DNA of 64,000 nucleotides from sequence record PQ615101. One strand, given 5' to 3'. Source of the DNA: Shigella phage SP21535. Numbering within the stretch: position 1 is the stretch's first letter; the number at the start of each line of letters is the position of its first letter. The notes under the pieces are model-generated. The model was given only the letters and a program-made list of their open reading frames with translations, did no database searches and had not been told where the DNA came from. Positions 7,876-60,536 of this stretch are shown here, piece by piece. The position numbers were made by a program, and so were the translations under genes.

Positions 7876-7916
7876 TATTTTGGGAACATAAATACTCTTA
7901 GAAATAGGAGATATTT

Positions 7917-8582
7917 ATGTTCCATTACACTTATAAAATAACAAATAAAATTAATAATAAAATTTATATTGGTGTGCATTCTACCGAAAATTTAGATGAT
8001 GGATATATGGGTTCTGGTAAATTATTAAAAAGAGCCCAAGACAAGTATGGTATAGAAAATTTCTCTAAAGAAATATTAGAGTATTTTGATGATAAAGAAT
8101 CTATGCTTGAAGCCGAGAAAAATATTGTCACAGAAGAGTTTTTAAATAGACCAGATGTGTATAATTTAAAACTTGGCGGTGAAGGTGGATGGGACCATAT
8201 AAATATTCCTGGGATGCTAAACCAGAAGAAAGATGCTAGCTTAAAAGGAGCTAAATCGTTTAAATCACGTTTTGAAAATGATATTTTACTTCAAGAAAAA
8301 TATCGTAAAATTGGTTCAAATGTATTTAAACGTTTGTGGTCAACTCCTGAATACAAGGAAAAATTTTTAAATAATAGCAGATTTTTAAATAAGCATCATA
8401 CTCCTGAAACTATTAATAAAATGAAAGAAATTCACGCTAAAAATAATCACCAGAAAGGAGAAAAGAATTCCCAATTTGGTATGATGTGGATTCATTCATT
8501 AGATGAAAAAGTTTCTAAACGTATTAAGAAAACTGACCCAATTCCAGAAGGATGGTTTAAAGGTCGAAAAATGAAATTTTAA
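7917..8582 (+). CDS. segB: GIY-YIG homing endonuclease SegB
   Basis: 221 aa inside the tRNA cluster as in T4; YKITNKINNKIYIGVHSTENLDDGYMGSG GIY-YIG motif. Confidence 0.85.
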   Translation: MFHYTYKITNKINNKIYIGVHSTENLDDGYMGSGKLLKRAQDKYGIENFSKEILEYFDDKESMLEAEKNIVTEEFLNRPDVYNLKLGGEGGWDHINIPGMLNQKKDASLKGAKSFKSRFENDILLQEKYRKIGSNVFKRLWSTPEYKEKFLNNSRFLNKHHTPETINKMKEIHAKNNHQKGEKNSQFGMMWIHSLDEKVSKRIKKTDPIPEGWFKGRKMKF

Positions 8583-13055: not shown

Positions 13056-13492
13056 AAACACTATCAGCTGGTATTATCTTTATGACAGAAGATAAAGATT
13101 TATTCATGGGACGGGTTACTGGTTCTCGTAAGCCTGGAATGATGGCACATCGCTGGGATATCCCAAAGGGCCGCGTAGAAAATTCTGATTTAAGCGCACT
13201 AGATGCAGCACGAAGAGAATGTTTAGAAGAGACTGGTTTTAGCAATTATAATCCAGACCTTCTAGAAGACCTAGGTGTATTTAAATATTCTAGTAATAAA
13301 GACTTACAGTTATTTTATTATACGATTCCAGTAGAGCATGAGATGTTTAGAAATTGCCATTGCGAGTCTTATTTTGAAAATAAAGATGGCGTTATGATTC
13401 CAGAGATGGACGCTTTTGCTCTTATTCCTCGTACTCAGTGGCAATATGTGATGGGTCCTTCACTTTACCGAATAATGAACAACCTCTTTTAA
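13052..13492 (+). CDS. nudE: Nudix hydrolase NudE
   Basis: Nudix box GRVENSDLSALDAARRECLEETGF; track ORF 13037..13492, ATG 13052 has the better SD. Confidence 0.85.
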   Translation: MKTLSAGIIFMTEDKDLFMGRVTGSRKPGMMAHRWDIPKGRVENSDLSALDAARRECLEETGFSNYNPDLLEDLGVFKYSSNKDLQLFYYTIPVEHEMFRNCHCESYFENKDGVMIPEMDAFALIPRTQWQYVMGPSLYRIMNNLF

Positions 13493-14023
<531 letters not shown>

Positions 14024-31616: not shown

Positions 31617-31665
31617 TACTTGAAAATAATAAATACCCTTATCTATTTAAGGTAAGGGTTTTATT

Positions 31666-32139
31666 ATGTTATTGACTGGCAAATTATACAAAGAAGAAAA
31701 ACAGAAATTTTATGATGCACAAAACGGTAAATGCTTAATTTGCCAACGAGAACTAAATCCTGATGTTCAAGCTAATCACCTTGACCATGACCATGAATTA
31801 AATGGACCAAAAGCAGGAAAGGTACGTGGATTGCTCTGTAATCTCTGTAATGCAGCAGAAGGTCAAATGAAGCATAAATTCAATCGTTCTGGCTTAAAGG
31901 GACAAGGTGTTGATTATCTTGAATGGTTAGAAAATTTACTTACTTATTTAAAATCCGATTACACCCAAAATAATATTCACCCTAACTTTGTTGGAGATAA
32001 ATCAAAGGAATTTTCTCGTTTAGGAAAAGAGGAAATGATGGCTGAGATGCTTCAAAGAGGATTTGAATATAATGAATCTGACACTAAAACACAATTAATA
32101 GCTTCATTTAAGAAGCAGCTTAGAAAGAGTTTAAAATGA
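31666..32139 (+). CDS. 49: endonuclease VII (Holliday junction resolvase)
   Basis: 157 aa; matches T4 EndoVII as I recall it, including zinc-binding CLICQ..CNLC. Confidence 0.9.
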   Translation: MLLTGKLYKEEKQKFYDAQNGKCLICQRELNPDVQANHLDHDHELNGPKAGKVRGLLCNLCNAAEGQMKHKFNRSGLKGQGVDYLEWLENLLTYLKSDYTQNNIHPNFVGDKSKEFSRLGKEEMMAEMLQRGFEYNESDTKTQLIASFKKQLRKSLK

Positions 32140-32673: not shown

Positions 32674-33706
32674 TAATTTAATTCAGGCTCATGTAAAACC
32701 GGTCTAAACGGGGAACCTCTCTAGTAGACAATCCCGTGCTAAATGTTCTTTTGAACTAAATGCCTAACGACTAACCGTGATGAATGTAGCGGTGTAGAAT
32801 AGAAGCTAATGCTATTCGAAACGGCCGGCATCGAAAGATGAAGATATAGTCTAATCTGCATGGCGACATGCAGCAGTCATCTTGTATAAATAAGATTATC
32901 TTATGAATACGAGGTGAAACAATGAAATGGATAAAAAGACGTTGTACTAAAATAAAAGATAAAGACGCATTTACATACTTAGTTAAGTTTTCTAATGGCG
33001 ACATTTATATCGGTTATAAAAAATTTAGAACAATTAAAAACAAGCCCACAAACTGGAAAACTTACACAACGTCATCTAAGTATATAAATGAACGCTTAAA
33101 AACTGATACACCTACTAAATGGATAATTTTAAAAACATTTGATAGTTATAAAGATGCATTAAAACATGAAGAAGAGGTCATACGTAAATATTTTTATAGC
33201 AAAAAATGTTTAAATAAATCCATAGGCGGTAAAAAGTTTTATAAGCATCCGGATACTGAAGAACATATTCAAAAATTAAGAGATGCTCATAAGGGTAAAG
33301 TGTTATCCGAATCTCATAAAAACAATATAAAATCTTCTGTAGCTGAATATTATGCTAAAAACGGAAGATCTAAGGAACATGTGCAAAATAATATCAATAG
33401 TCGAAAAAGTAAAAAACAAGTATCGATAAAGCTTAAAAATAAAACTTTTAGAAGTTTTAAAAAAGCAGCGGAATATTTAAATTGCACTGAAAGTGAAGTC
33501 GAAACTCATCCTCTTGTTTTGAGTATTAAGACTACTATTCATAAAGTTCCTGAATATGTGGTTGTTGACGGTATTAAGTATACGTCTTATATAGAAGCAG
33601 CTAAAGCGCTAAATTTTCATCCTAGCACTATAAAAGAACGTTGCATATCTATGGACTATCCAAATTTTGTTGTTTCATATAAACGGGCATGAATTTGCGA
33701 CTCATG
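32674..33706 (+). mobile_element. group I intron in nrdD (T4 nrdD/sunY-type) carrying I-TevII
   Basis: Starts UAAUU like the T4 td intron; core CUAAACGGGGAACCUCUCUAGUAGACAAUCCCGUGCUAAAU; inferred length 1033 nt equals the T4 nrdD intron. Confidence 0.75.
32922..33692 (+). CDS. I-TevII: intron-encoded GIY-YIG homing endonuclease I-TevII
   Basis: 256 aa ORF inside the intron; FTYLVKFSNGDIYIGYKK motif. Confidence 0.8.
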   Translation: MKWIKRRCTKIKDKDAFTYLVKFSNGDIYIGYKKFRTIKNKPTNWKTYTTSSKYINERLKTDTPTKWIILKTFDSYKDALKHEEEVIRKYFYSKKCLNKSIGGKKFYKHPDTEEHIQKLRDAHKGKVLSESHKNNIKSSVAEYYAKNGRSKEHVQNNINSRKSKKQVSIKLKNKTFRSFKKAAEYLNCTESEVETHPLVLSIKTTIHKVPEYVVVDGIKYTSYIEAAKALNFHPSTIKERCISMDYPNFVVSYKRA

Positions 33707-34998
33707 CTGAATATAATGATGAAGTAAATACACTTTTCAGCTCTAATGGACAAACGCCTTTTGTAACAATTACATTTGGTACGGGAACTGACTGGACTGA
33801 ACGAATGATTCAGAAAGCAATTCTGAAAAATCGTATTAAAGGTCTTGGTCGTGATGGGATAACTCCTATTTTCCCTAAGCTTGTTATGTTCGTTGAAGAA
33901 GGTGTTAATCTTTATAAAGACGATCCGAACTATGATATTAAGCAGCTTGCTCTAGAGTGCGCAAGCAAAAGAATGTATCCTGATATTATTTCAGCTAAGA
34001 ACAATAAAGCTATCACTGGTTCATCTGTTCCTGTTTCTCCGATGGGATGCCGTAGTTTCTTGAGCGTATGGAAAGATTCGACTGGCAATGAAATTCTTGA
34101 TGGACGTAATAATCTTGGTGTTGTAACATTGAATCTTCCTCGCATCGCGTTAGATTCTTATATTGGAACACAGTTCAATGAACAGAAATTTGTTGAATTG
34201 TTCAATGAGCGAATGGATTTATGTTTTGAAGCTTTGATGTGTAGAATTAGTTCCTTAAAAGGAGTTAAAGCGACTGTTGCTCCTATTCTTTACCAAGAAG
34301 GTGCATTCGGGGTTCGTCTTAAACCTGATGACGATATAATTGAGTTATTTAAAAACGGCAGAAGTTCAGTGTCTTTGGGATACATTGGTATTCACGAATT
34401 AAATATTCTTGTCGGTCGTGATATTGGACAAGAAATTTTAACTAAAATGAATGCTCATCTTAAACAGTGGACTGAAAGAACCGGATTTGCTTTTAGTTTA
34501 TATTCGACTCCTGCTGAAAACCTTTGTTACCGCTTCTGTAAACTTGATACAGAAAAATATGGAAGTGTAAAAGATGTTACCGATAAAGGCTGGTACACTA
34601 ATAGTTTCCATGTTTCAGTAGAAGAAAATATTACTCCGTTTGAAAAGATTTCTCGTGAAGCGCCATATCATTTCATTGCGACAGGTGGTCACATTTCTTA
34701 TGTTGAACTTCCTGATATGAAAAATAACTTAAAAGGCCTTGAGGCCGTGTGGGATTATGCTGCACAACATTTAGATTATTTTGGTGTTAATATGCCAGTA
34801 GATAAATGTTTTACATGCGGAAGCACCCATGAAATGACTCCTACTGAAAACGGATTTGTTTGTTCTATTTGTGGAGAAACTGATCCTAAAAAGATGAATA
34901 CAATAAGAAGAACATGCGGATATCTTGGAACTCCTAGCGTTGTTCCATGGAATTTAGGTAAAATGAAAGAAATGGTAAAACGAGTAAAACATGCATAG
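33707..34998 (+). CDS. nrdD: anaerobic ribonucleotide reductase NrdD, exon 2
   Basis: 3-prime splice after G33706, exon 2 begins CUGAA (P10 pairing); C-terminal glycyl radical motif RRTCGYLG; combined product about 609 aa. Confidence 0.75.
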
Positions 34999-35821
34999 GT
35001 ATTATATAATTTATAAAATAACAAATATAATTAATTCAAAGGAATATATCGGTGCGCATAGCACCGATAACATAAATGACGGTTATATGGGGTCAGGAAC
35101 ATTGATTCGTGCCGCTTTATTAAAATATGGTAGAAAAAATTTTAATAAAGAAATTTTACATGTTTTTGATAATGAAAAACAAATGTATGATAAAGAAGCT
35201 GAACTTGTAACCGAAGAGTATTGTCTAAAAGAAAATACATATAATATTAAACCTGGTGGAAAAGGTGGAACTGCCTATGAACAGACACTTGAACATCGCC
35301 GCAAAAATAGTTTAGCAAATAAAGGTAAAAAGAGAACAGAAGAAACTAAAATAGCTATTTCACGTGCTTTAAAGAAATATAAACGTACGCCAGAGCATCA
35401 AGCAAATTTAAATAAAGCCGTAAGCATAGCTATGAAGCGAAAAGATGTTAGAAGTAAATTAGCTGGAGAGCGGTCTGAGAAAGATAAATTATCTATATCA
35501 AACGGTGTTAAAAAATATTACAATTCTTTGAGTGAAGAAGAACGCGAACTTCATCGCAAGCGAATTATTGAAGGTAAAAAGAATTCTCCCATGTCATTGG
35601 AATCTAGACAAAAGCTTTCAAAAGCTTTAAAAGGACTTCAAGTTGGTTCAAAAAATCCAATGTATGGAAAAATTTCTCCAACTAGCAAAACCGTTTCAGT
35701 TGACGGTATTAAATATGATTCAATTAAAAAGTGCTCAAATGCCATAAAAGTTTCTAGACATCTTATACTAAAACGCTGTAATTCTACTGATGAAGCTTGG
35801 AAAAATTGGATATTATTATGA
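34991..35821 (+). CDS. free-standing GIY-YIG homing endonuclease, SegB paralogue
   Basis: 276 aa; N-terminus YKITNIINSKEYIGAHSTDNINDGYMGSG closely parallels segB; NUMOD-like repeats; sits between nrdD and nrdG. Confidence 0.75.
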   Translation: MHRYYIIYKITNIINSKEYIGAHSTDNINDGYMGSGTLIRAALLKYGRKNFNKEILHVFDNEKQMYDKEAELVTEEYCLKENTYNIKPGGKGGTAYEQTLEHRRKNSLANKGKKRTEETKIAISRALKKYKRTPEHQANLNKAVSIAMKRKDVRSKLAGERSEKDKLSISNGVKKYYNSLSEEERELHRKRIIEGKKNSPMSLESRQKLSKALKGLQVGSKNPMYGKISPTSKTVSVDGIKYDSIKKCSNAIKVSRHLILKRCNSTDEAWKNWILL

Positions 35822-43473: not shown

Positions 43474-45152
43474 AGAATTTTAAACTTAATAGAGTAAAAT
43501 ATAAAAATATAATGTCAGTTGGTCAAAATGGGATTGACATTCAATTAGATAAGGTTCAAAAAACTCTTATTACTGGACGAAATGGCGGTGGTAAGTCTAC
43601 TATGTTAGAAGCCATCACATTCGGGCTTTTTGGCAAGCCATTCCGTGATGTAAAGAAAGGTCAATTAATAAACAGCACAAATAAGAAAGAACTTTTAGTT
43701 GAACTGTGGATGGAATATGATGAGAAAAAGTACTATATCAAAAGAGGACAAAAACCAAACGTTTTCGAAATCACCGTTAACGGTACACGTCTTAATGAAT
43801 CTGCCAGCAGTAAAGATTTCCAAGCAGAATTTGAACAGCTTATCGGAATGTCATATGCCAGTTTCAAGCAGATTGTTGTCCTTGGTACAGCAGGGTATAC
43901 CCCTTTCATGGGCCTGTCGACCCCTGCGCGAAGAAAGCTTGTGGAAGACCTGCTCGAAGTAGGAACATTAGCTGAAATGGATAAGCTTAATAAAGCACTA
44001 ATACGTGAATTAAATTCGCAGAACCAAGTGCTTGATGTTAAAAAAGATAGTATTATCCAACAAATTAAAATATATAATGATAACGTTGAACGCCAGAAAA
44101 AATTAACTGGTGACAACCTTACTCGTCTACAAAATATGTATGATGATTTGGCAAAAGAAGCTAGAACGCTAAAATCGGAAATAGAAGAAGCTAATGAAAG
44201 ATTAGTTAATATTGTTTTAGACGAAGACCCGACTGATGCATTTAATAAAATCGGTCAAGAAGCAGTTTTAATTAAATCAAAAATTGACTCGTATAATAAA
44301 GTCATTAATATGTATCACGAAGGTGGATTATGTCCAACCTGCTTGTCACAATTAAGTTCCGGTGATAAAGTTGTTTCTAAAATTAAAGATAAAGTTTCTG
44401 AATGTACGCATTCGTTTGAACAGCTTTCAACACATCGTGATAATTTAAAAGTTCTTGTTGATGAATACCGAGATAATATTAAAACCCAACAGTCGTTGGC
44501 AAATGATATTCGCAATAAAAAGCAATCTCTAATCACGACGGTAGATAAAGCCAAAAAAGTTAAAGCAGCTATAGAAAAAGCATCTTCTGAGTTTATTGAC
44601 CATGCTGATGAAATAGCACTGCTTCAAGAAGAACTTGATAAAATTGTTAAGACAAAAACTAATTTAGTAATGGAAAAATACCACCGAGGAATTTTGACTG
44701 ATATGCTCAAAGATTCTGGTATTAAAGGTGCTATTATTAAAAAGTACATTCCATTATTTAATAAGCAGATTAACCATTATCTTAAAATAATGGAAGCGGA
44801 TTATGTGTTTACATTAGATGAAGAATTTAATGAGACAATTAAATCCCGTGGTCGTGAAGATTTTAGTTATGCTTCATTTAGTGAAGGTGAAAAAGCACGA
44901 ATTGATATTGCTCTTTTATTTACTTGGCGTGATATTGCTTCTATCGTATCTGGTGTTAGTATTAGTACATTAATTCTTGATGAAGTGTTTGATGGGTCAT
45001 TTGATGCCGAAGGTATTAAAGGCGTAGCTAATATTATAAATTCAATGAAAAATACTAATGTTTTTATAATTTCGCATAAAGACCATGACCCGCAAGAATA
45101 TGGTCAGCATCTTCAAATGAAGAAAGTTGGTCGGTTTACTGTAATGGTTTAA
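43470..45152 (+). CDS. 46: recombination ATPase subunit gp46 (SbcC/Rad50-like)
   Basis: 560 aa as T4 gp46; GTG start overlapping upstream stop; Walker A GRNGGGKST; CxxC zinc hook. Confidence 0.9.
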   Translation: MKNFKLNRVKYKNIMSVGQNGIDIQLDKVQKTLITGRNGGGKSTMLEAITFGLFGKPFRDVKKGQLINSTNKKELLVELWMEYDEKKYYIKRGQKPNVFEITVNGTRLNESASSKDFQAEFEQLIGMSYASFKQIVVLGTAGYTPFMGLSTPARRKLVEDLLEVGTLAEMDKLNKALIRELNSQNQVLDVKKDSIIQQIKIYNDNVERQKKLTGDNLTRLQNMYDDLAKEARTLKSEIEEANERLVNIVLDEDPTDAFNKIGQEAVLIKSKIDSYNKVINMYHEGGLCPTCLSQLSSGDKVVSKIKDKVSECTHSFEQLSTHRDNLKVLVDEYRDNIKTQQSLANDIRNKKQSLITTVDKAKKVKAAIEKASSEFIDHADEIALLQEELDKIVKTKTNLVMEKYHRGILTDMLKDSGIKGAIIKKYIPLFNKQINHYLKIMEADYVFTLDEEFNETIKSRGREDFSYASFSEGEKARIDIALLFTWRDIASIVSGVSISTLILDEVFDGSFDAEGIKGVANIINSMKNTNVFIISHKDHDPQEYGQHLQMKKVGRFTVMV

Positions 45153-53889: not shown

Positions 53890-54819
53890 ATGTCTATTGC
53901 AGATTTAAAATCCCGTTTGATTAAAGCTTCCACTTCTAAAATGACTGCTGAACTGACTACATCTAAATTCTTTAATGAAAAGGATGTAATCCGTACAAAA
54001 ATCCCAATGCTTAATATCGCTATTTCTGGCGCGATTGATGGCGGCATGCAGTCTGGTTTAACTATTTTCGCAGGGCCTTCTAAACACTTTAAATCAAATA
54101 TGTCTTTGACTATGGTTGCGGCATATTTAAACAAATATCATGACGCAGTTTGTCTATTCTATGATAGCGAATTTGGTATTACTCCAGCTTATTTGCGATC
54201 CATGGGAGTTGACCCGGAACGAGTAATTCATACGCCAATTCAGTCAGTTGAACAGCTGAAAATTGATATGGTGAACCAGCTTGAAGCTATTGAGCGTGGT
54301 GAAAAGGTTATTGTATTCATCGACTCAATCGGTAATATGGCTTCTAAGAAAGAAACGGAAGATGCCTTGAATGAAAAATCTGTGGCAGATATGACTCGTG
54401 CTAAATCACTGAAGTCATTATTCCGTATTGTTACTCCTTATTTTAGCATTAAAAATATTCCATGTGTTGCGGTTAACCATACAATTGAAACAATTGAACT
54501 GTTTAGTAAAACCGTGATGACAGGTGGTTGTGTTATTGCTGGTACTAAAATCCAGATGTCCGATGGTTCTACTAAAGCAGTTGAAGATATTCGTCCAGGT
54601 GAGCGTGTTAAAACCATGGTCGGTGATAATGAAGTAACTTATGTTTGGGACCCCGAAACTCTGGCTGAAGGTACTCCTGAATGTTTCGAAATTGAATTCG
54701 AAGACGGTTATAAAGTAACTACTTCAGATACTCACAAGTTCCTGGTAATGGTTAAAGACATTCCAACTTGGGTTGAAGCTAAAGATTTAGTAGCTGGAAT
54801 GGATTGTGTTGTAAGGTAA
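53890..54819 (+). CDS. uvsX: UvsX recombinase N-terminal fragment (residues 1-213) fused in frame to a putative intein N-half
   Basis: First 213 aa match T4 UvsX up to ..FSKTVMTGG (Walker A GPSKHFKS); then 96 aa starting with Cys; ends TAA TAA. Confidence 0.85.
   Translation: MSIADLKSRLIKASTSKMTAELTTSKFFNEKDVIRTKIPMLNIAISGAIDGGMQSGLTIFAGPSKHFKSNMSLTMVAAYLNKYHDAVCLFYDSEFGITPAYLRSMGVDPERVIHTPIQSVEQLKIDMVNQLEAIERGEKVIVFIDSIGNMASKKETEDALNEKSVADMTRAKSLKSLFRIVTPYFSIKNIPCVAVNHTIETIELFSKTVMTGGCVIAGTKIQMSDGSTKAVEDIRPGERVKTMVGDNEVTYVWDPETLAEGTPECFEIEFEDGYKVTTSDTHKFLVMVKDIPTWVEAKDLVAGMDCVVR
54529..54816 (+). other. putative split-intein N-terminal half (Int-N, 96 aa)
   Basis: Begins CVIAGTKIQMSDGS (block A Cys1), contains TTSDTHKF (block B TxxH); absent from T4 uvsX. 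Confidence 0.65.
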
Positions 54820-54822
54820 TAA

Positions 54823-54864
54823 ATATGGGTACCGGACTAATGTATATTTTTGAGGTACCCATAT
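54823..54864 (+). promoter_or_regulatory. hairpin sequestering the endonuclease RBS and start codon
   Basis: Perfect 11-bp inverted repeat ATATGGGTACC (54823-54833) / GGTACCCATAT (54854-54864), 20-nt loop; 3-prime arm covers GAGG SD and A,T of ATG 54863. Confidence 0.6.
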
Positions 54865-55585
54865 GAATTTTGTCTATAAAATTGTGTTCAACGATAGAAT
54901 TAAAAACGGCACTCCGCCATATTACTACATAGGGAGCAAGACAAATGCTTCTTATGTAGATGGTAAGATTATTGACGCCCACGGTCGTGAGTACTATGGC
55001 TCATCGAGATATCCCGGATATCATGATTTTATCAATAATGTTACTGTTGAAATATTGGAGCAATATGATGATATTAAACACACTAAACTGCTAGAGCGCG
55101 AAAATTTCTATCAGAAACAAGTAAATGTTAAAACAAATCCAGATTATTTTAATTTAGATTATGCTTGTGGGCATAATTCATATGCTAATGCTGATTTTGC
55201 ATCATACAAGCATTATATAACAGGTAAATGTATTCGTCTTGAAAGAAACCATCCGCTTGTTAAATCTGGTGTGTATGTTGGCGTCACAAAAGGCGTGAAA
55301 TCTTCTGATGAACACCGCAAGCACATATCAGAAGGTATTACCGGAGAAAACAATGGGTTCTATGGTAAGAAACACACTAAAGAAACAATTAATAAAATAT
55401 CAGAAAAAGCAAAGAAAAGATTAAAGCATTCCCATCCTAGACAAAAAGGTGTTATCATAAACGGTATTGAATACCGGGGCGTCAGACCTGCTGCAAGAGC
55501 GTTGGGAATTAATCCTAACACAATTATCAACAAAATTAAAGCTAATATAAAAGGATGGGCTTATGCAGTAGATGCACGCGGTTAA
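54863..55585 (+). CDS. free-standing GIY-YIG homing endonuclease between the two uvsX fragments
   Basis: 240 aa; VYKIVF..YYIGSK GIY-YIG-type N-terminus, NUMOD-like linker repeats, C-terminal helix-turn-helix-like region. Confidence 0.75.
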   Translation: MNFVYKIVFNDRIKNGTPPYYYIGSKTNASYVDGKIIDAHGREYYGSSRYPGYHDFINNVTVEILEQYDDIKHTKLLERENFYQKQVNVKTNPDYFNLDYACGHNSYANADFASYKHYITGKCIRLERNHPLVKSGVYVGVTKGVKSSDEHRKHISEGITGENNGFYGKKHTKETINKISEKAKKRLKHSHPRQKGVIINGIEYRGVRPAARALGINPNTIINKIKANIKGWAYAVDARG

Positions 55586-55693
55586 GGCATTCGAAGATAT
55601 GGTAAAAGAATTTGGAATGAACATGACAATCAAGATTATGCTTTCATGAAATATGTATATTGAAACTAGCTACTACGAAACACAAGGTAAAGT

Positions 55694-55798
55694 ATGAAAA
55701 TTAAATCTGTTAAATCTGTTGGTAAAAAAGAAGTCTATGATTTGTCTGTTGCTGACGTCGAGCATTATGTTTTAGAAAATGGTATCGTTACACACAAC
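55694..55798 (+). other. putative split-intein C-terminal half (Int-C, 35 aa)
   Basis: Ends His-Asn followed by Thr +1 extein residue; block F/G-like VYDLSVADVEHYVLENGIVTHN. Confidence 0.65.
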
Positions 55799-56341
55799 AC
55801 AGGCGTAATGTATTCGGCTGATACTGTATTCATTATCGGTAAGCGCCAGATTAAAGATGGTTCTGATCTTCAGGGGTATCAATTTGTTCTAAATGTAGAA
55901 AAATCTCGTACCGTTAAAGAAAAAAGTAAATTCTTTATTGATGTTAAATTTGACGGTGGCATCGATCCTTATTCTGGATTGTTAGATATGGCTCTTGAAT
56001 TAGGATTTGTGGTAAAACCTAAAAATGGCTGGTATGCTCGTGAATTTCTTGACGAAGAAACAGGCGAGATGATTCGCGAAGAAAAATCTTGGCGTGCAAA
56101 AGATACCAACTGCACTACATTCTGGGGTCCTTTATTTAAGCATCAGCCATTCCGAGATGCTATTAAACGTGCTTATCAGTTAGGTGCTATTGATAGTAAT
56201 GAAATTGTTGAAGCTGAAGTTGATGAATTAATTAACTCAAAGGTTGAAAAATTTAAATCTCCAGAAAGTAAAAGTAAATCAGCAGCTGATTTAGAAACTG
56301 ACCTAGATCAGTTAAGTGATATGGAAGAATTTAATGAATAA
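55694..56341 (+). CDS. uvsX: putative intein C-half (35 aa) fused in frame to UvsX C-terminal fragment (180 aa)
   Basis: Own AAGG SD and ATG; ..VYDLSVADVEHYVLENGIVTHN then TGVMYSADTVFIIGKRQ.. matching T4 UvsX C-terminal region. Confidence 0.85.
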   Translation: MKIKSVKSVGKKEVYDLSVADVEHYVLENGIVTHNTGVMYSADTVFIIGKRQIKDGSDLQGYQFVLNVEKSRTVKEKSKFFIDVKFDGGIDPYSGLLDMALELGFVVKPKNGWYAREFLDEETGEMIREEKSWRAKDTNCTTFWGPLFKHQPFRDAIKRAYQLGAIDSNEIVEAEVDELINSKVEKFKSPESKSKSAADLETDLDQLSDMEEFNE

Positions 56342-59507: not shown

Positions 59508-60536
59508 ATGTCATCAATACCTTGGATTGATAATGAGTTTGCATATCGTGCGCTAGCTCATTTACCTAAATTCACACAAGTAAATAATAGTTCAACTTTT
59601 AAATTACGGTTTAGATGCCCTGTTTGTGGAGATTCAAAAACCGATCAAAATAAAGCCCGTGGATGGTATTATGGTGATAACAATGAAGGAAATATTCATT
59701 GTTATAACTGTAACTATCATGCACCAATCGGAATATATCTAAAGGAGTTTGAACCTGATTTATATCGTGAGTATATCTTTGAAATAAGAAAAGAAAAAGG
59801 TAAAAGTCGTCCAGTAGAAAAACCTAAAGAACTTCCTAAACAACCTGAGAAGAAAATAATTAAATCTCTTCCGTCATGTGTTAGATTAGATAAACTGGCG
59901 GAAGACCATCCAATTATAAAATATGTAAAAGCTCGTTGTATTCCAAAGGATAAATGGAAATATCTTTGGTTTACAACCGAATGGCCTAAATTGGTTAATA
60001 GCATAGTACCGGGAACATATAAAAAGGAAATTTCTGAGCCTCGTCTTGTTATTCCAATTTATAATGCTAATGGAAAGGCTGAGTCTTTTCAAGGACGCGC
60101 ATTAAAGAAAGATGCTCCACAAAAGTATATCACCATCAAAGCTTATCCTGAGGCAACAAAAATCTATGGAGTCGAACGAGTTAAAGATGGTGATGTATAT
60201 GTTCTAGAAGGACCTATAGATTCACTTTTTATTGAAAATGGTATAGCCATTACGGGTGGTCAATTAGACCTAGAAGTTGTTCCATTTAAAGATAGACGAG
60301 TGTGGGTCTTAGATAATGAACCTCGTCACCCTGACACTATTAAACGAATGACTAAATTAGTTGATGCAGGAGAAAGGGTTATGTTTTGGGATAAATCTCC
60401 CTGGAAATCAAAAGATGTTAATGATATGATTAGAAAGGAAGGTGCAACCCCTGAACAAATTATGGAATATATGAAAAATAATATTGCCCAGGGGTTAATG
60501 GCTAAAATGCGGTTATCTAAATATGCTAAGATTTAA
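59508..60536 (+). CDS. 61: DNA primase gp61
   Basis: 342 aa as T4 gp61; zinc ribbon CPVCGDS..CYNC; Toprim-like core. Confidence 0.9.
   Translation: MSSIPWIDNEFAYRALAHLPKFTQVNNSSTFKLRFRCPVCGDSKTDQNKARGWYYGDNNEGNIHCYNCNYHAPIGIYLKEFEPDLYREYIFEIRKEKGKSRPVEKPKELPKQPEKKIIKSLPSCVRLDKLAEDHPIIKYVKARCIPKDKWKYLWFTTEWPKLVNSIVPGTYKKEISEPRLVIPIYNANGKAESFQGRALKKDAPQKYITIKAYPEATKIYGVERVKDGDVYVLEGPIDSLFIENGIAITGGQLDLEVVPFKDRRVWVLDNEPRHPDTIKRMTKLVDAGERVMFWDKSPWKSKDVNDMIRKEGATPEQIMEYMKNNIAQGLMAKMRLSKYAKI

What the first reader, a model, noticed from the sequence alone, without database searches (positions are those of the whole stretch)
54818..54865. Hairpin masks the RBS of the uvsX-embedded endonuclease, with a late-promoter-like box just upstream
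A perfect 11-bp inverted repeat (ATATGGGTACC at 54823-54833, GGTACCCATAT at 54854-54864) pairs the GAGG SD and part of the ATG of the endonuclease gene. Immediately upstream, AATAAATA (54818-54825) is one mismatch from the late promoter consensus TATAAATA. A late transcript starting inside the 5-prime arm could not form the stem, so the endonuclease would be translated only late. This is the logic described for I-TevI in the T4 td intron.
Basis: partly seen in the sequence, partly recalled or inferred. Interest (0 to 1): 0.6.

Follow-up and report, generated by a model that had tools for sequence, protein, structure and literature searches.

The report
Late-switch hairpin on uvsX homing endonuclease
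A conserved RNA hairpin, with a phage late-promoter box built into its upstream arm, most likely keeps a selfish DNA-cutting enzyme gene inside the phage recombinase gene uvsX silent until late in infection; this control is already well known from phage T4, so this is a new example rather than a new mechanism.

Summary
A perfect 11-bp inverted repeat (54823-54833 / 54854-54864, 20-nt loop, about -16 kcal/mol) pairs the last two bases of the GAGG Shine-Dalgarno, the spacer and the AU of the ATG at 54863. AATAAATA (54818-54825) overlaps its 5' arm.

AATAAATA is the commonest natural variant of the T4 late promoter (A at -13 in 9 of 50 T4 sites). It puts the predicted +1 at 54831, inside the 5' arm.

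The stem is under selection. Five diverged relatives keep it through four compensatory pair changes. In 22 distinct loci with the same interrupted uvsX, a late-type box sits in or at a hairpin over the endonuclease start, and 20 of 22 have +1 inside or past the masking arm.

The same window holds the textbook versions: lysozyme e, gene 49 (also AATAAATA), an I-TevII-like gene and a segB-like gene.

uvsX is a "fractured gene": a split intein (96 + 35 aa) with a free-standing I-TevI-like endonuclease between the halves, an arrangement described by Dassa et al. 2009.

One extra lead: the hairpin loop mimics the intein-less uvsX junction (15/18), like the I-TevI operator.

Verdict: real and probably functional, a new member of a known kind. 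No expression data exist.

The parts
53890..54528 (+). uvsX N-extein (residues 1-213, ends ...SKTVMTGG)
   Evidence: Aligns residue for residue with the uninterrupted RB27 UvsX up to G213. Pfam RecA match.
54529..54819 (+). N-terminal half of the split intein (96 codons, Cys1 = 54529-54531, block B TSDTH), ending in TAA 54817-54819 followed by an in-frame TAA
   Evidence: Hint / intein_Nterm matches, TIGR01445 at 22.4 bits against a cut-off of 24.5. Same 96-97 aa half at the same site in all 11 phage loci analysed.
54818..54825 (+). AATAAATA, a T4-type (gp55) late-promoter box with A at -13; overlaps the stop codon and the first 3 nt of the 5' arm
   Evidence: The A(-13) variant occurs at 9 of 50 T4 late promoters (PMC2988020). 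The box spans -13 to -6 (PMC1524935).
54831..54831 (+). Predicted late transcription start (+1, an A), inside the 5' arm
   Evidence: Inferred from the box position. Not measured.
54823..54833 (+). 5' arm of the hairpin (ATATGGGTACC)
   Evidence: covariation.
54834..54853 (+). 20-nt loop; contains the conserved TAATG.A motif and the GA of the SD
   Evidence: Loop columns are invariant while the stem covaries.
54854..54864 (+). 3' arm (GGTACCCATAT): the GG of the SD, the spacer and the AU of the start codon
54852..54855 (+). Shine-Dalgarno GAGG, 7 nt before the ATG
   Evidence: The start codon is confirmed by the conserved MNFVYK N-termini of homologues.
54828..54845 (+). Mimic of the intein-less uvsX junction (GGTACCGGACTAATGTAT against GGT|ACAGGCGTAATGTAT, 15/18); candidate operator
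   Evidence: shuffle p 0.003-0.008. Function is inferred only.
54863..55585 (+). Free-standing homing endonuclease gene (240 aa): GIY-YIG-like N-terminal domain, then an I-TevI-like NUMOD3 + helix-turn-helix DNA-binding domain
   Evidence: NUMOD3 3.3e-10. PHROG 'homing endonuclease'. TIGR01453 at 53.9 bits against a cut-off of 56.05. PDB 1I3J, the I-TevI DNA-binding domain, E 1.7e-4.
55694..55798 (+). C-terminal half of the split intein (35 codons, ends ...VTHN)
   Evidence: TIGR01443 intein_Cterm at 29.9 bits against a cut-off of 15.6.
55799..56341 (+). uvsX C-extein (starts TGVMYSADTV)
   Evidence: Aligns with RB27 UvsX from T214 onward. Pfam T4_UVSX_C 1.9e-39.

Best explanation
The hairpin is a temporal translation switch of the T4 type. 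It controls a free-standing, I-TevI-like homing endonuclease gene that sits between the two halves of a split intein in uvsX.

Early and middle transcripts that read through from uvsX carry both arms. The 11-bp stem then buries half of the Shine-Dalgarno, the spacer and most of the start codon, so 30S subunits load poorly and little endonuclease is made.

Late in infection, gp55-RNA polymerase recognises AATAAATA (54818-54825) and starts at about 54831, inside the 5' arm. These shorter transcripts cannot form the stem, and the endonuclease is translated.

Shown here: the stem exists and is kept by compensatory evolution; the box is a bona fide late-promoter variant in the right register; and the layout is conserved across the family and matches validated T4 cases in this same window.

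Inferred: promoter activity, the position of +1, and the size and timing of the translational effect.
For: 1. Structure. The stem is a perfect 11 bp, -15.8 kcal/mol, and is both MFE and centroid in read-through RNAs.
2. Late transcript. RNA starting at 54831 keeps only about -0.9 to -5 kcal/mol of alternative structure, and the unpaired probability of -12..+3 rises from 0.26 to 0.62.
3. Covariation. Across window, RPN226, Pm5461, CF-SP2 and SEA1, 96% of cells are paired and 4 of 11 pairs show changes on both sides (G-C to A-U twice, U-A to C-G, A-U to G-C). One U·G wobble favours RNA over DNA. 0 of 500 shuffles reach the observed values, and slid registers collapse to 19-55% paired.
4. Family-wide layout. 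All 22 distinct fractured-uvsX loci from phage genomes, IMG/VR and metagenomes have a late-type box 14-48 nt before the endonuclease ATG. Sixteen are NATAAATA, ten of them perfect TATAAATA. In 20 of 22 the predicted +1 lies inside or 3' of the arm that pairs with the initiation region, although the stems are unrelated in sequence.
5. Promoter plausibility. A(-13) is the commonest T4 late-promoter variant, at 9 of 50 sites (PMC2988020). AATAAATA is depleted in the window, 4 against 15.3 expected. Of its 3 plus-strand copies, one lies in the 5' arm of the gene 49 hairpin and one is this site.
6. Internal positive controls with the same geometry: lysozyme e (ATG 13529), endonuclease VII gene 49 (ATG 31666), an I-TevII-like gene (ATG 32922) and a segB-like gene (ATG 7917). 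Reviews describe these as experimentally established or implicated cases (PMC2988022, PMC3014915).
7. Read-through context. No plus-strand terminator and no sigma-70-like promoter lies between uvsX-N and the endonuclease, so the gene sits on read-through transcripts.
8. Precedent. Dassa et al. found hairpins upstream of 15 of 16 endonucleases in fractured genes, 10 of them with TATAAATA (PMC2677866).
Against: - No transcript mapping or protein data exist for this phage or any relative.
- The 10 nt after the box (TGGGTACCGG) are 7/10 G+C, against 1-5/10 for the other late boxes in the window. T4 late promoters are AT-rich there (PMC2988020), so the promoter may be weak.
- In the closest relatives the box is never the perfect consensus: AATAAATA, GATAAATA, ATTAAATA, and AATAAATG in SEA1.
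- The stem leaves GA of the SD unpaired, and occlusion is only moderate by ensemble measures (rank 20 of 115).
- The stop codon of uvsX-N ends 3 nt before the 5' arm. A terminating ribosome would melt roughly 3-7 bp, which weakens the stem to -12.9, -8.2 or -1.9 kcal/mol for 3, 5 or 7 nt removed. Some early, coupled translation is therefore possible.
- In SEA1 the stem no longer overlaps the start codon.
Confidence: 0.6

Rival explanations
1. Constitutive attenuator. The hairpin simply keeps endonuclease translation low at all times on uvsX read-through mRNA. In this phage the AATAAATA box is not an active promoter; it is an AT-rich remnant that overlaps the tandem stop codons.
For: The initiation region after the box is GC-rich. 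The close relatives all carry non-consensus boxes, and SEA1 has AATAAATG. Seven T4 free-standing endonucleases are promoter-less cassettes (PMC2988022).
Against: A(-13) boxes are accepted T4 late promoters. The word is strongly avoided elsewhere in the window. The box-in-hairpin register is kept in 20 of 22 family members, including ten with perfect TATAAATA. Gene 49 in the same window uses AATAAATA in the same geometry.
Confidence: 0.2
2. Translational coupling. Ribosomes terminating at the uvsX-N/intein stop codon (54817-54819) open the base of the stem and allow re-initiation or fresh initiation at 54863. Endonuclease synthesis would then follow uvsX-N translation (early and middle) rather than late transcription.
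For: The stop codon is 3 nt from the 5' arm. Removing 3, 5 or 7 nt of the arm weakens the stem to -12.9, -8.2 or -1.9 kcal/mol. In about 10 of the 15 family loci I compared by hand, using the stop and arm positions, the arm begins within 8 nt of the stop or overlaps it.
Against: In PM2, L051 and L082 the arm starts 17-19 nt after the stop, yet the box-in-hairpin layout persists. The gene e hairpin in this window also abuts an upstream stop, and the T4 e hairpin is reported to reduce early lysozyme synthesis about 100-fold (PMC3014915). The GG of the SD stays paired unless more than 8 nt are melted.
Confidence: 0.12
3. DNA-level element. The inverted repeat is a palindromic protein-binding site, or a cruciform or recombination signal at the edge of the mobile cassette, and not an RNA structure.
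For: Each arm contains the palindrome GGTACC. The loop and 5' arm resemble the endonuclease's presumed DNA target.
Against: In RPN226 and CF-SP2 the arms become GGATACC and GGTATCC. These are no longer palindromes or direct repeats, yet they remain complementary to each other. Pm5461 uses a U·G pair, which is valid only in RNA. Unrelated stems in other lineages always involve the SD or AUG.
Confidence: 0.04
4. Chance inverted repeat, or a transcription terminator or processing site, with no role in translation.
For: The 111-nt region as a whole is not unusually stable (z = -0.93).
Against: Perfect repeats of this size are about 4-fold over-represented and rare. The stem shows compensatory evolution. 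There is no T-run after the stem, and the terminator scan finds nothing on the plus strand. An 11-bp stem is too short for RNase III (established knowledge).
Confidence: 0.02

Closest known systems
I-TevI in the T4 td group I intron (also I-TevII and I-TevIII)
   Same: The RBS is sequestered by a hairpin on early and middle read-through transcripts. A late promoter sits immediately upstream, placed so that late transcripts lack the inhibitory 5' strand (PMC2988022, PMC3014915). The endonuclease's DNA-binding domain is homologous (PDB 1I3J/1T2T, E 1.7e-4). There is a possible operator that resembles the homing site next to the late promoter.
   Different: Here the gene lies between the halves of a split intein, not in a self-splicing intron. 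The published rationale for I-TevI (keeping ribosomes out of the folding intron) therefore cannot apply. The box is the A(-13) variant. The GIY-YIG catalytic domain is only weakly recognisable. Autorepression is untested.
Fractured genes: split intein plus free-standing homing endonuclease (Dassa et al. 2009, PMC2677866)
   Same: The host gene is in two adjacent ORFs carrying N- and C-intein halves, with a free-standing GIY-YIG/NUMOD endonuclease between them. A hairpin upstream of the endonuclease start often contains TATAAATA (15 of 16 hairpins, 10 with the box).
   Different: Their loci were metagenomic (gp41, IMPDH, NrdA, NrdJ, DnaE and others), and uvsX appears only as a neighbouring gene. 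Here the host gene is uvsX itself, in cultured phages of E. coli, Salmonella, Proteus, Klebsiella, Enterobacter, Yersinia, Pseudomonas and Vibrio.
mobE in the nrdA gene of Aeromonas phage Aeh1 (Gibb and Edgell 2007, 2009, as summarised in PMC2988022 and PMC3014915)
   Same: A free-standing endonuclease splits an essential gene into two ORFs. An RNA hairpin sequesters its RBS, and a late promoter is embedded in it.
   Different: mobE is an HNH enzyme. nrdA is split without an intein, and the two halves reassemble non-covalently. The Aeh1 late consensus is CTAAATA.
T4 genes e, 49 and soc, and segB
   Same: The same late-promoter-in-hairpin switch. The e, 49 and segB-like copies are present in this window with the same geometry, and gene 49 also uses AATAAATA.
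   Different: e, 49 and soc are ordinary phage genes rather than a mobile endonuclease inside another gene. Their stems cover the SD more completely (unpaired probability 0.07-0.08 against 0.26).

Membership tests
T4-type late-promoter / RBS-hairpin translational switch (e, 49, soc, I-TevI/II/III, segB, Aeh1 mobE) | A stem-loop pairs the Shine-Dalgarno and/or start codon in read-through transcripts | tested here: met
   The 11-bp stem pairs GG of GAGG, the spacer and AU of AUG. It is both MFE and centroid.
T4-type late-promoter / RBS-hairpin translational switch (e, 49, soc, I-TevI/II/III, segB, Aeh1 mobE) | The stem is maintained by selection (covariation in relatives) | tested here: met
   4 of 11 pairs have compensatory changes, 96% of cells are paired and 0 of 500 shuffles reach this. 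Only 5 sequences.
T4-type late-promoter / RBS-hairpin translational switch (e, 49, soc, I-TevI/II/III, segB, Aeh1 mobE) | A gp55-type box (TATAAATA at -13 to -6) placed so that +1 falls within or after the 5' strand of the stem | tested here: met
   AATAAATA at 54818-54825 gives +1 at 54831 inside the arm 54823-54833. The A(-13) variant occurs at 9 of 50 T4 late promoters. The register holds in 20 of 22 family loci.
T4-type late-promoter / RBS-hairpin translational switch (e, 49, soc, I-TevI/II/III, segB, Aeh1 mobE) | An AT-rich segment immediately downstream of the box, the region that melts | tested here: not met
   TGGGTACCGG is 7/10 G+C, against 1-5/10 at the other late boxes in the window. 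This is a typical rather than a strictly defining property (PMC2988020).
T4-type late-promoter / RBS-hairpin translational switch (e, 49, soc, I-TevI/II/III, segB, Aeh1 mobE) | The gene lies on longer early or middle transcripts | tested here: inconclusive
   No plus-strand terminator or sigma-70-like promoter lies between uvsX-N and the endonuclease. Transcripts were not measured.
T4-type late-promoter / RBS-hairpin translational switch (e, 49, soc, I-TevI/II/III, segB, Aeh1 mobE) | Late-only 5' ends and late-only translation in infection | not testable with these tools
   Needs 5'-end mapping and protein time courses.
Fractured gene (split intein + free-standing homing endonuclease; Dassa 2009) | The host gene is split into two adjacent same-strand ORFs at a precise point | tested here: met
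   The uvsX halves join exactly at G213|T214 of RB27 UvsX.
Fractured gene (split intein + free-standing homing endonuclease; Dassa 2009) | N- and C-intein halves carrying the splicing motifs | tested here: met
   Cys1, block B TxxH (TSDTH), terminal HN and Thr+1 are present. TIGR01443 scores 29.9 bits against a cut-off of 15.6. TIGR01445 scores 22.4 against 24.5, just below.
Fractured gene (split intein + free-standing homing endonuclease; Dassa 2009) | A free-standing endonuclease ORF between the halves | tested here: met
   The 240-aa NUMOD3 / I-TevI-like ORF at 54863-55585.
Fractured gene (split intein + free-standing homing endonuclease; Dassa 2009) | Protein trans-splicing restores full-length UvsX | not testable with these tools
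   Needs co-expression of the two halves and a western blot or mass spectrometry.
I-TevI-type GIY-YIG homing endonuclease with autorepression | An I-TevI-like DNA-binding domain (NUMOD3 helix + helix-turn-helix) | tested here: met
   A profile of 8 homologues hits PDB 1I3J/1T2T over residues 154-235, E 1.7e-4. NUMOD3 3.3e-10. TIGR01453 scores 53.9 bits against a cut-off of 56.05.
I-TevI-type GIY-YIG homing endonuclease with autorepression | A GIY-YIG catalytic domain | tested here: inconclusive
   No Pfam GIY-YIG hit in any of 8 homologues. A weak profile alignment to the segB-like GIY-YIG protein lines up the YIG, GS, E and N motifs (E 0.0025, probability 12%).
I-TevI-type GIY-YIG homing endonuclease with autorepression | Encoded inside a self-splicing group I intron | tested here: not met
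   The gene lies between split-intein halves, with no Rfam intron match in 54600-55800.
I-TevI-type GIY-YIG homing endonuclease with autorepression | An operator resembling the homing site at the late promoter | tested here: inconclusive
   54828-54845 matches the reconstructed intein-less junction 15/18 (p 0.003-0.008). 6 of 20 loci reach p<0.05, and the best hit falls between the junction and +27 of the C-extein in 15 of 20. Binding is untested.

The most novel reading that the evidence does not exclude
The 48-nt leader may be a three-in-one control module kept in fractured uvsX genes across the Straboviridae. It would combine a late promoter, an RBS-masking stem, and a mimic of the intein-less uvsX junction in the 5' arm and loop. 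The endonuclease's I-TevI-like DNA-binding domain would bind that mimic and repress its own late promoter. This would extend I-TevI-style autorepression from intron-borne to intein-associated endonucleases. It would do so in culturable coliphages, where the natural split intein, homing and regulation can all be tested genetically.
Probability: 0.3. Interest if true: 0.5.

Novelty: new member of a known kind. Interest (0 to 1): 0.3.

Why it matters
The mechanism is textbook T4 biology, so the hairpin does not change understanding. Its value is as a clean and well-conserved further example.

- The late-promoter-in-hairpin switch accompanies this endonuclease family wherever it sits in uvsX, across at least seven phage genera and many environmental contigs.
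- For I-TevI the accepted rationale is protecting intron folding from ribosomes. That cannot apply between split-intein halves, so the same switch here argues for a more general reason to delay endonuclease synthesis.
- The carriers (BYEP01, SYGD1, ELT1, HY03, pSe_SNUABM_01, RPN226) are ordinary lab-culturable T4-like phages. They have intein-less sister phages about 98% identical over the parts of the uvsX region they share. This gives a tractable system for testing regulation, homing and natural protein trans-splicing of an essential recombinase.

Tried and rejected
- Whole-segment folding z-score: not significant, so stability of the region is not the argument. The local stem and its covariation are.
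- Ensemble occlusion ranking of all 115 plus-strand starts: the endonuclease ranks only 20th because half of the SD sits in the loop. I kept this as a caveat.
- Sigma-70-like promoter and intrinsic terminator scan: nothing relevant on the plus strand near the site. I also saw no TGCTT MotA box in 54700-54830 by eye in the sequence.
- Rfam: no family.
- Pfam on 8 homologues: no GIY-YIG hit, so the catalytic family remains only weakly supported.
- Literature searches for a described uvsX split intein or uvsX-embedded endonuclease found only Dassa 2009, where uvsX is a neighbour and not the host. From memory, not verified here, atypically split 'VidaL UvsX' inteins from metagenomes exist.
- The two primary mobE papers (PMC2655525, PMC1913452) are not held, so I relied on the reviews.
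- A control for the homing-site mimic, using a uvsX segment 150 nt downstream, gave a mean best score of 6.9 against 7.8 for the junction. That is only a modest difference, so the operator idea stays a hypothesis.
Full report
**1. The observation**

The sequence reads ...GGTAATAAATATGGGTACCGGACTAATGTATATTTTTGAGGTACCCATATGAAT.... ATATGGGTACC (54823-54833) and GGTACCCATAT (54854-54864) are exact reverse complements separated by 20 nt. GAGG is at 54852-54855, the ATG at 54863 and AATAAATA at 54818-54825. The repeat finder reports the same arms.

Folded as RNA, the stem is the centroid and part of the MFE structure of read-through segments. Alone it is worth -15.8 kcal/mol. Perfect inverted repeats of at least 11 bp with a loop of 30 nt or less are rare: 5 distinct in 64 kb against 1.2 expected. 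Two of the five lie exactly over the start of a homing-endonuclease gene.

Two refinements apply. Only GG of the SD, the spacer and AU of the AUG are in the stem. The wider 111-nt segment is not unusually stable (z = -0.93).

**2. What is really there**

The window is a T4-like coliphage (Tequatrovirus), 98.8% identical to phage BYEP01 across this region.

uvsX is not merely carrying an embedded endonuclease. It is a fractured gene made of three parts:
- ORF 53890-54819 is UvsX residues 1-213 followed by a 96-aa N-intein (Cys1, block B TSDTH).
- ORF 55694-56341 is a 35-aa C-intein ending in HN, followed by UvsX from Thr214.
- The exteins abut exactly when compared with the uninterrupted RB27 UvsX. 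intein_Cterm passes its curated cut-off and intein_Nterm falls just below.

Between the halves lies a 240-aa free-standing endonuclease (54863-55585):
- NUMOD3 at 3.3e-10.
- PHROG 'homing endonuclease'.
- TIGR01453 'group I intron endonuclease' at 53.9 bits against a 56.05 cut-off.
- The C-terminal half is homologous to the solved I-TevI DNA-binding domain (1I3J/1T2T, E 1.7e-4).
- The N-terminal domain has GIY-YIG-like motifs, but only weak profile support.

Of 759 phage records matching the region, only 8 (6 distinct phages) cover at least 80% of the query and so carry the insertion. Homologous endonucleases in the same split-intein context occur in Gelderlandvirus, Karamvirus, Bragavirus, Tegunavirus and Jiangsuvirus, in a Vibrio phage, and in many IMG/VR and metagenome contigs. 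In all 11 phage loci analysed, the intein halves are the same length at the same site.

**3. Is the hairpin functional?**

In the closest relatives the region is identical. The most diverged Tequatrovirus copy (RPN226) has G54829A together with C54858T, a G-C to A-U swap. Pm5461, CF-SP2 and SEA1 add further double changes.

On the five-sequence alignment, 96% of cells pair and 4 of 11 pairs show changes on both sides. One pair is a U·G wobble. No shuffle reaches the observed values, and slid registers collapse to 19-55% paired. Both GGTACC palindromes become GGATACC and GGTATCC. This rules out a repeated DNA word and supports base-pairing.

More distant loci have stems with no sequence similarity. 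Across 22 distinct loci a late-type box lies 14-48 nt before the ATG. In 20 of the 22 the predicted +1 lies inside or 3' of the strand that pairs with the initiation region.

**4. Is the box a late promoter?**

Reviews state that the T4 late promoter is TATAAATA at -13 to -6 (PMC1524935). Of 50 T4 sites, 32 are perfect and nine have A at -13 (PMC2988020). AATAAATA is therefore the commonest natural variant, not a near miss.

In the window AATAAATA occurs 4 times against 15.3 expected. One of its three plus-strand copies lies in the 5' arm of the gene 49 hairpin, and another is this site.

With +1 at 54831, the late RNA keeps three nucleotides of the arm. The local structure falls from -16.5 to -0.9 kcal/mol. 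The unpaired probability of -12..+3 rises from 0.26 to 0.62.

**5. Internal positive controls**

The same scan recovers the T4 cases in this very window (identities from Pfam; scans):
- Lysozyme e: ATG 13529, with two TATAAATA boxes in the 5' strand.
- Endonuclease VII, gene 49: ATG 31666, with AATAAATA at 31628.
- An I-TevII-like gene: ATG 32922, with TATAAATA at 32885.
- A segB-like gene: ATG 7917, with CATAAATA at 7887 inside a 12-bp perfect repeat.

Reviews describe these as shown or implicated examples of RBS sequestration relieved by late transcription (PMC2988022; PMC3014915).

**6. Mechanism and rivals**

Points against it:
- The 10 nt after the box are 7/10 G+C, against 1-5/10 elsewhere in the window.
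- The near relatives never carry the perfect consensus.
- The uvsX-N stop codon is 3 nt from the 5' arm. Terminating ribosomes would melt part of the stem, giving -12.9, -8.2 or -1.9 kcal/mol after removing 3, 5 or 7 nt.

These points sustain two rivals:
- A constitutive attenuator with an inactive box (about 0.2).
- Termination-coupled translation (about 0.12).

Against coupling as the main route, several relatives place the stem 17-19 nt from the stop and still keep the box. The gene e hairpin also abuts an upstream stop, and the T4 e hairpin is reported to repress about 100-fold (PMC3014915).

A DNA-level palindrome, a terminator or chance are each unlikely.

**7. An additional lead**

The 5' arm and loop (54828-54845, GGTACCGGACTAATGTAT) match the reconstructed intein-less uvsX junction (GGT|ACAGGCGTAATGTAT) at 15 of 18 positions, spanning the junction itself (shuffle p 0.003-0.008).

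- Loop columns (TAATG.A) are invariant while the stem covaries.
- Pm5461, UFV01 and an independent lineage (L052) show junction matches in the same orientation.
- PM2 and L082 have significant matches in inverted orientation. EniLVp02 and PspYZU05 show similar but non-significant inverted matches. By my reading of the leaders, these inverted copies lie upstream of the box.
- Overall 6 of 20 loci reach p<0.05, and the best hit falls between the junction and +27 of the C-extein in 15 of 20.

I-TevI autorepresses through an operator that resembles its homing site and overlaps its late promoter (PMC2988022). This enzyme has an I-TevI-like DNA-binding domain. An operator is therefore a reasonable hypothesis (about 0.3). 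A control uvsX segment scored only modestly lower (6.9 against 7.8), so the idea is not established.

**8. Comparison with what is known, and novelty**

The regulatory logic is that of I-TevI/II/III, segB, Aeh1 mobE and T4 e, 49 and soc. The genomic arrangement is the 'fractured gene' of Dassa et al. 2009 (PMC2677866), who already noted hairpins with TATAAATA upstream of the intervening endonucleases.

I found no paper describing uvsX as the fractured host or this particular hairpin. The finding is therefore a new member of a known kind: real, very probably functional, and mechanistically ordinary.

Interest is 0.3. It is raised slightly by three things: the family-wide conservation, the availability of culturable carrier phages with nearly identical intein-less sisters, and the possible operator.

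Noticed in passing
window 53890-56341: uvsX is a fractured gene. A split intein (N half 96 aa, C half 35 aa; Cys1, HN, Thr+1) is inserted between G213 and T214, with a free-standing endonuclease between the halves. The same arrangement occurs in at least seven Straboviridae genera and in many environmental contigs. I found no paper describing it for uvsX.
   Followed up: yes
window 54828-54845, compared with 54526-54528 + 55799-55813: The hairpin's 5' arm and loop match the reconstructed intein-less uvsX junction at 15 of 18 positions. Similar matches occur in other lineages, in direct or inverted orientation. This may be an I-TevI-style operator for the endonuclease.
   Followed up: partly
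window 7883-7923 (ATG 7917): A 12-bp perfect inverted repeat, with CATAAATA in its 5' arm, covers the SD and ATG of a segB-like GIY-YIG gene immediately after a tRNA 3' end. It is the strongest example in the window of the same switch (unpaired probability 0.07 rising to 0.57).
   Followed up: partly
window 31626-31668 (gene 49, ATG 31666): The endonuclease VII gene has an RBS-masking hairpin whose 5' arm contains AATAAATA (31628-31635), the same A(-13) variant as at the uvsX endonuclease.
   Followed up: partly
window 13490-13531 (gene e) and 32885-32925 (I-TevII-like gene): The lysozyme gene has two tandem TATAAATA boxes inside the 5' strand of its RBS hairpin. The I-TevII-like GIY-YIG gene has TATAAATA at 32885 in the same geometry.
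   Followed up: partly
whole window: AATAAATA is strongly depleted (4 copies against 15.3 expected, with every shuffle having at least 4). TATAAATA is strand-biased (11 of 13 copies on the plus strand), and most plus-strand copies lie 13-39 nt upstream of a start codon.
   Followed up: partly
window 55586-55693; L003, L004, L005 and L006: The spacer between the endonuclease stop and the uvsX-C start is variable. ELT1, HY03 and pSe_SNUABM_01 carry an extra 34 bp, and RPN226 lacks most of the spacer. In Gelderlandvirus and Karamvirus relatives the two ORFs overlap (ATGA). The spacer contains a MotA-box-like TGCTTTCA (55639-55646) followed 9-10 nt later by TATATT (55656-55661), a possible middle promoter for uvsX-C.
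   Followed up: no
window 34991-35821: This is another NUMOD3 / I-TevI-DNA-binding-like endonuclease ORF (276 aa). It has a 12-bp perfect inverted repeat inside its coding sequence (35115-35150).
   Followed up: no
window 44749-44795 and 59677-59705: Two further perfect 11-bp inverted repeats lie inside long ORFs. Their function is unknown.
   Followed up: no
alignment A4: The endonuclease family shares one N-terminal domain but has two different C-terminal DNA-binding modules: NUMOD3 + HTH in the Tequatrovirus, Gelderlandvirus and Pm5461 group, and NUMOD3 repeats + a CPHC zinc finger in PM2, PspYZU05 and EniLVp02. The split coincides with the direct versus inverted orientation of the junction mimic.
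   Followed up: no
L045 (Salmonella phage SEA1) 1239-1303: In SEA1 the box is degraded to AATAAATG. The stem (GCGGATAC/GTATCCGC) no longer reaches the start codon, which also lacks a clear SD. This may be a decaying copy of the switch.
   Followed up: no
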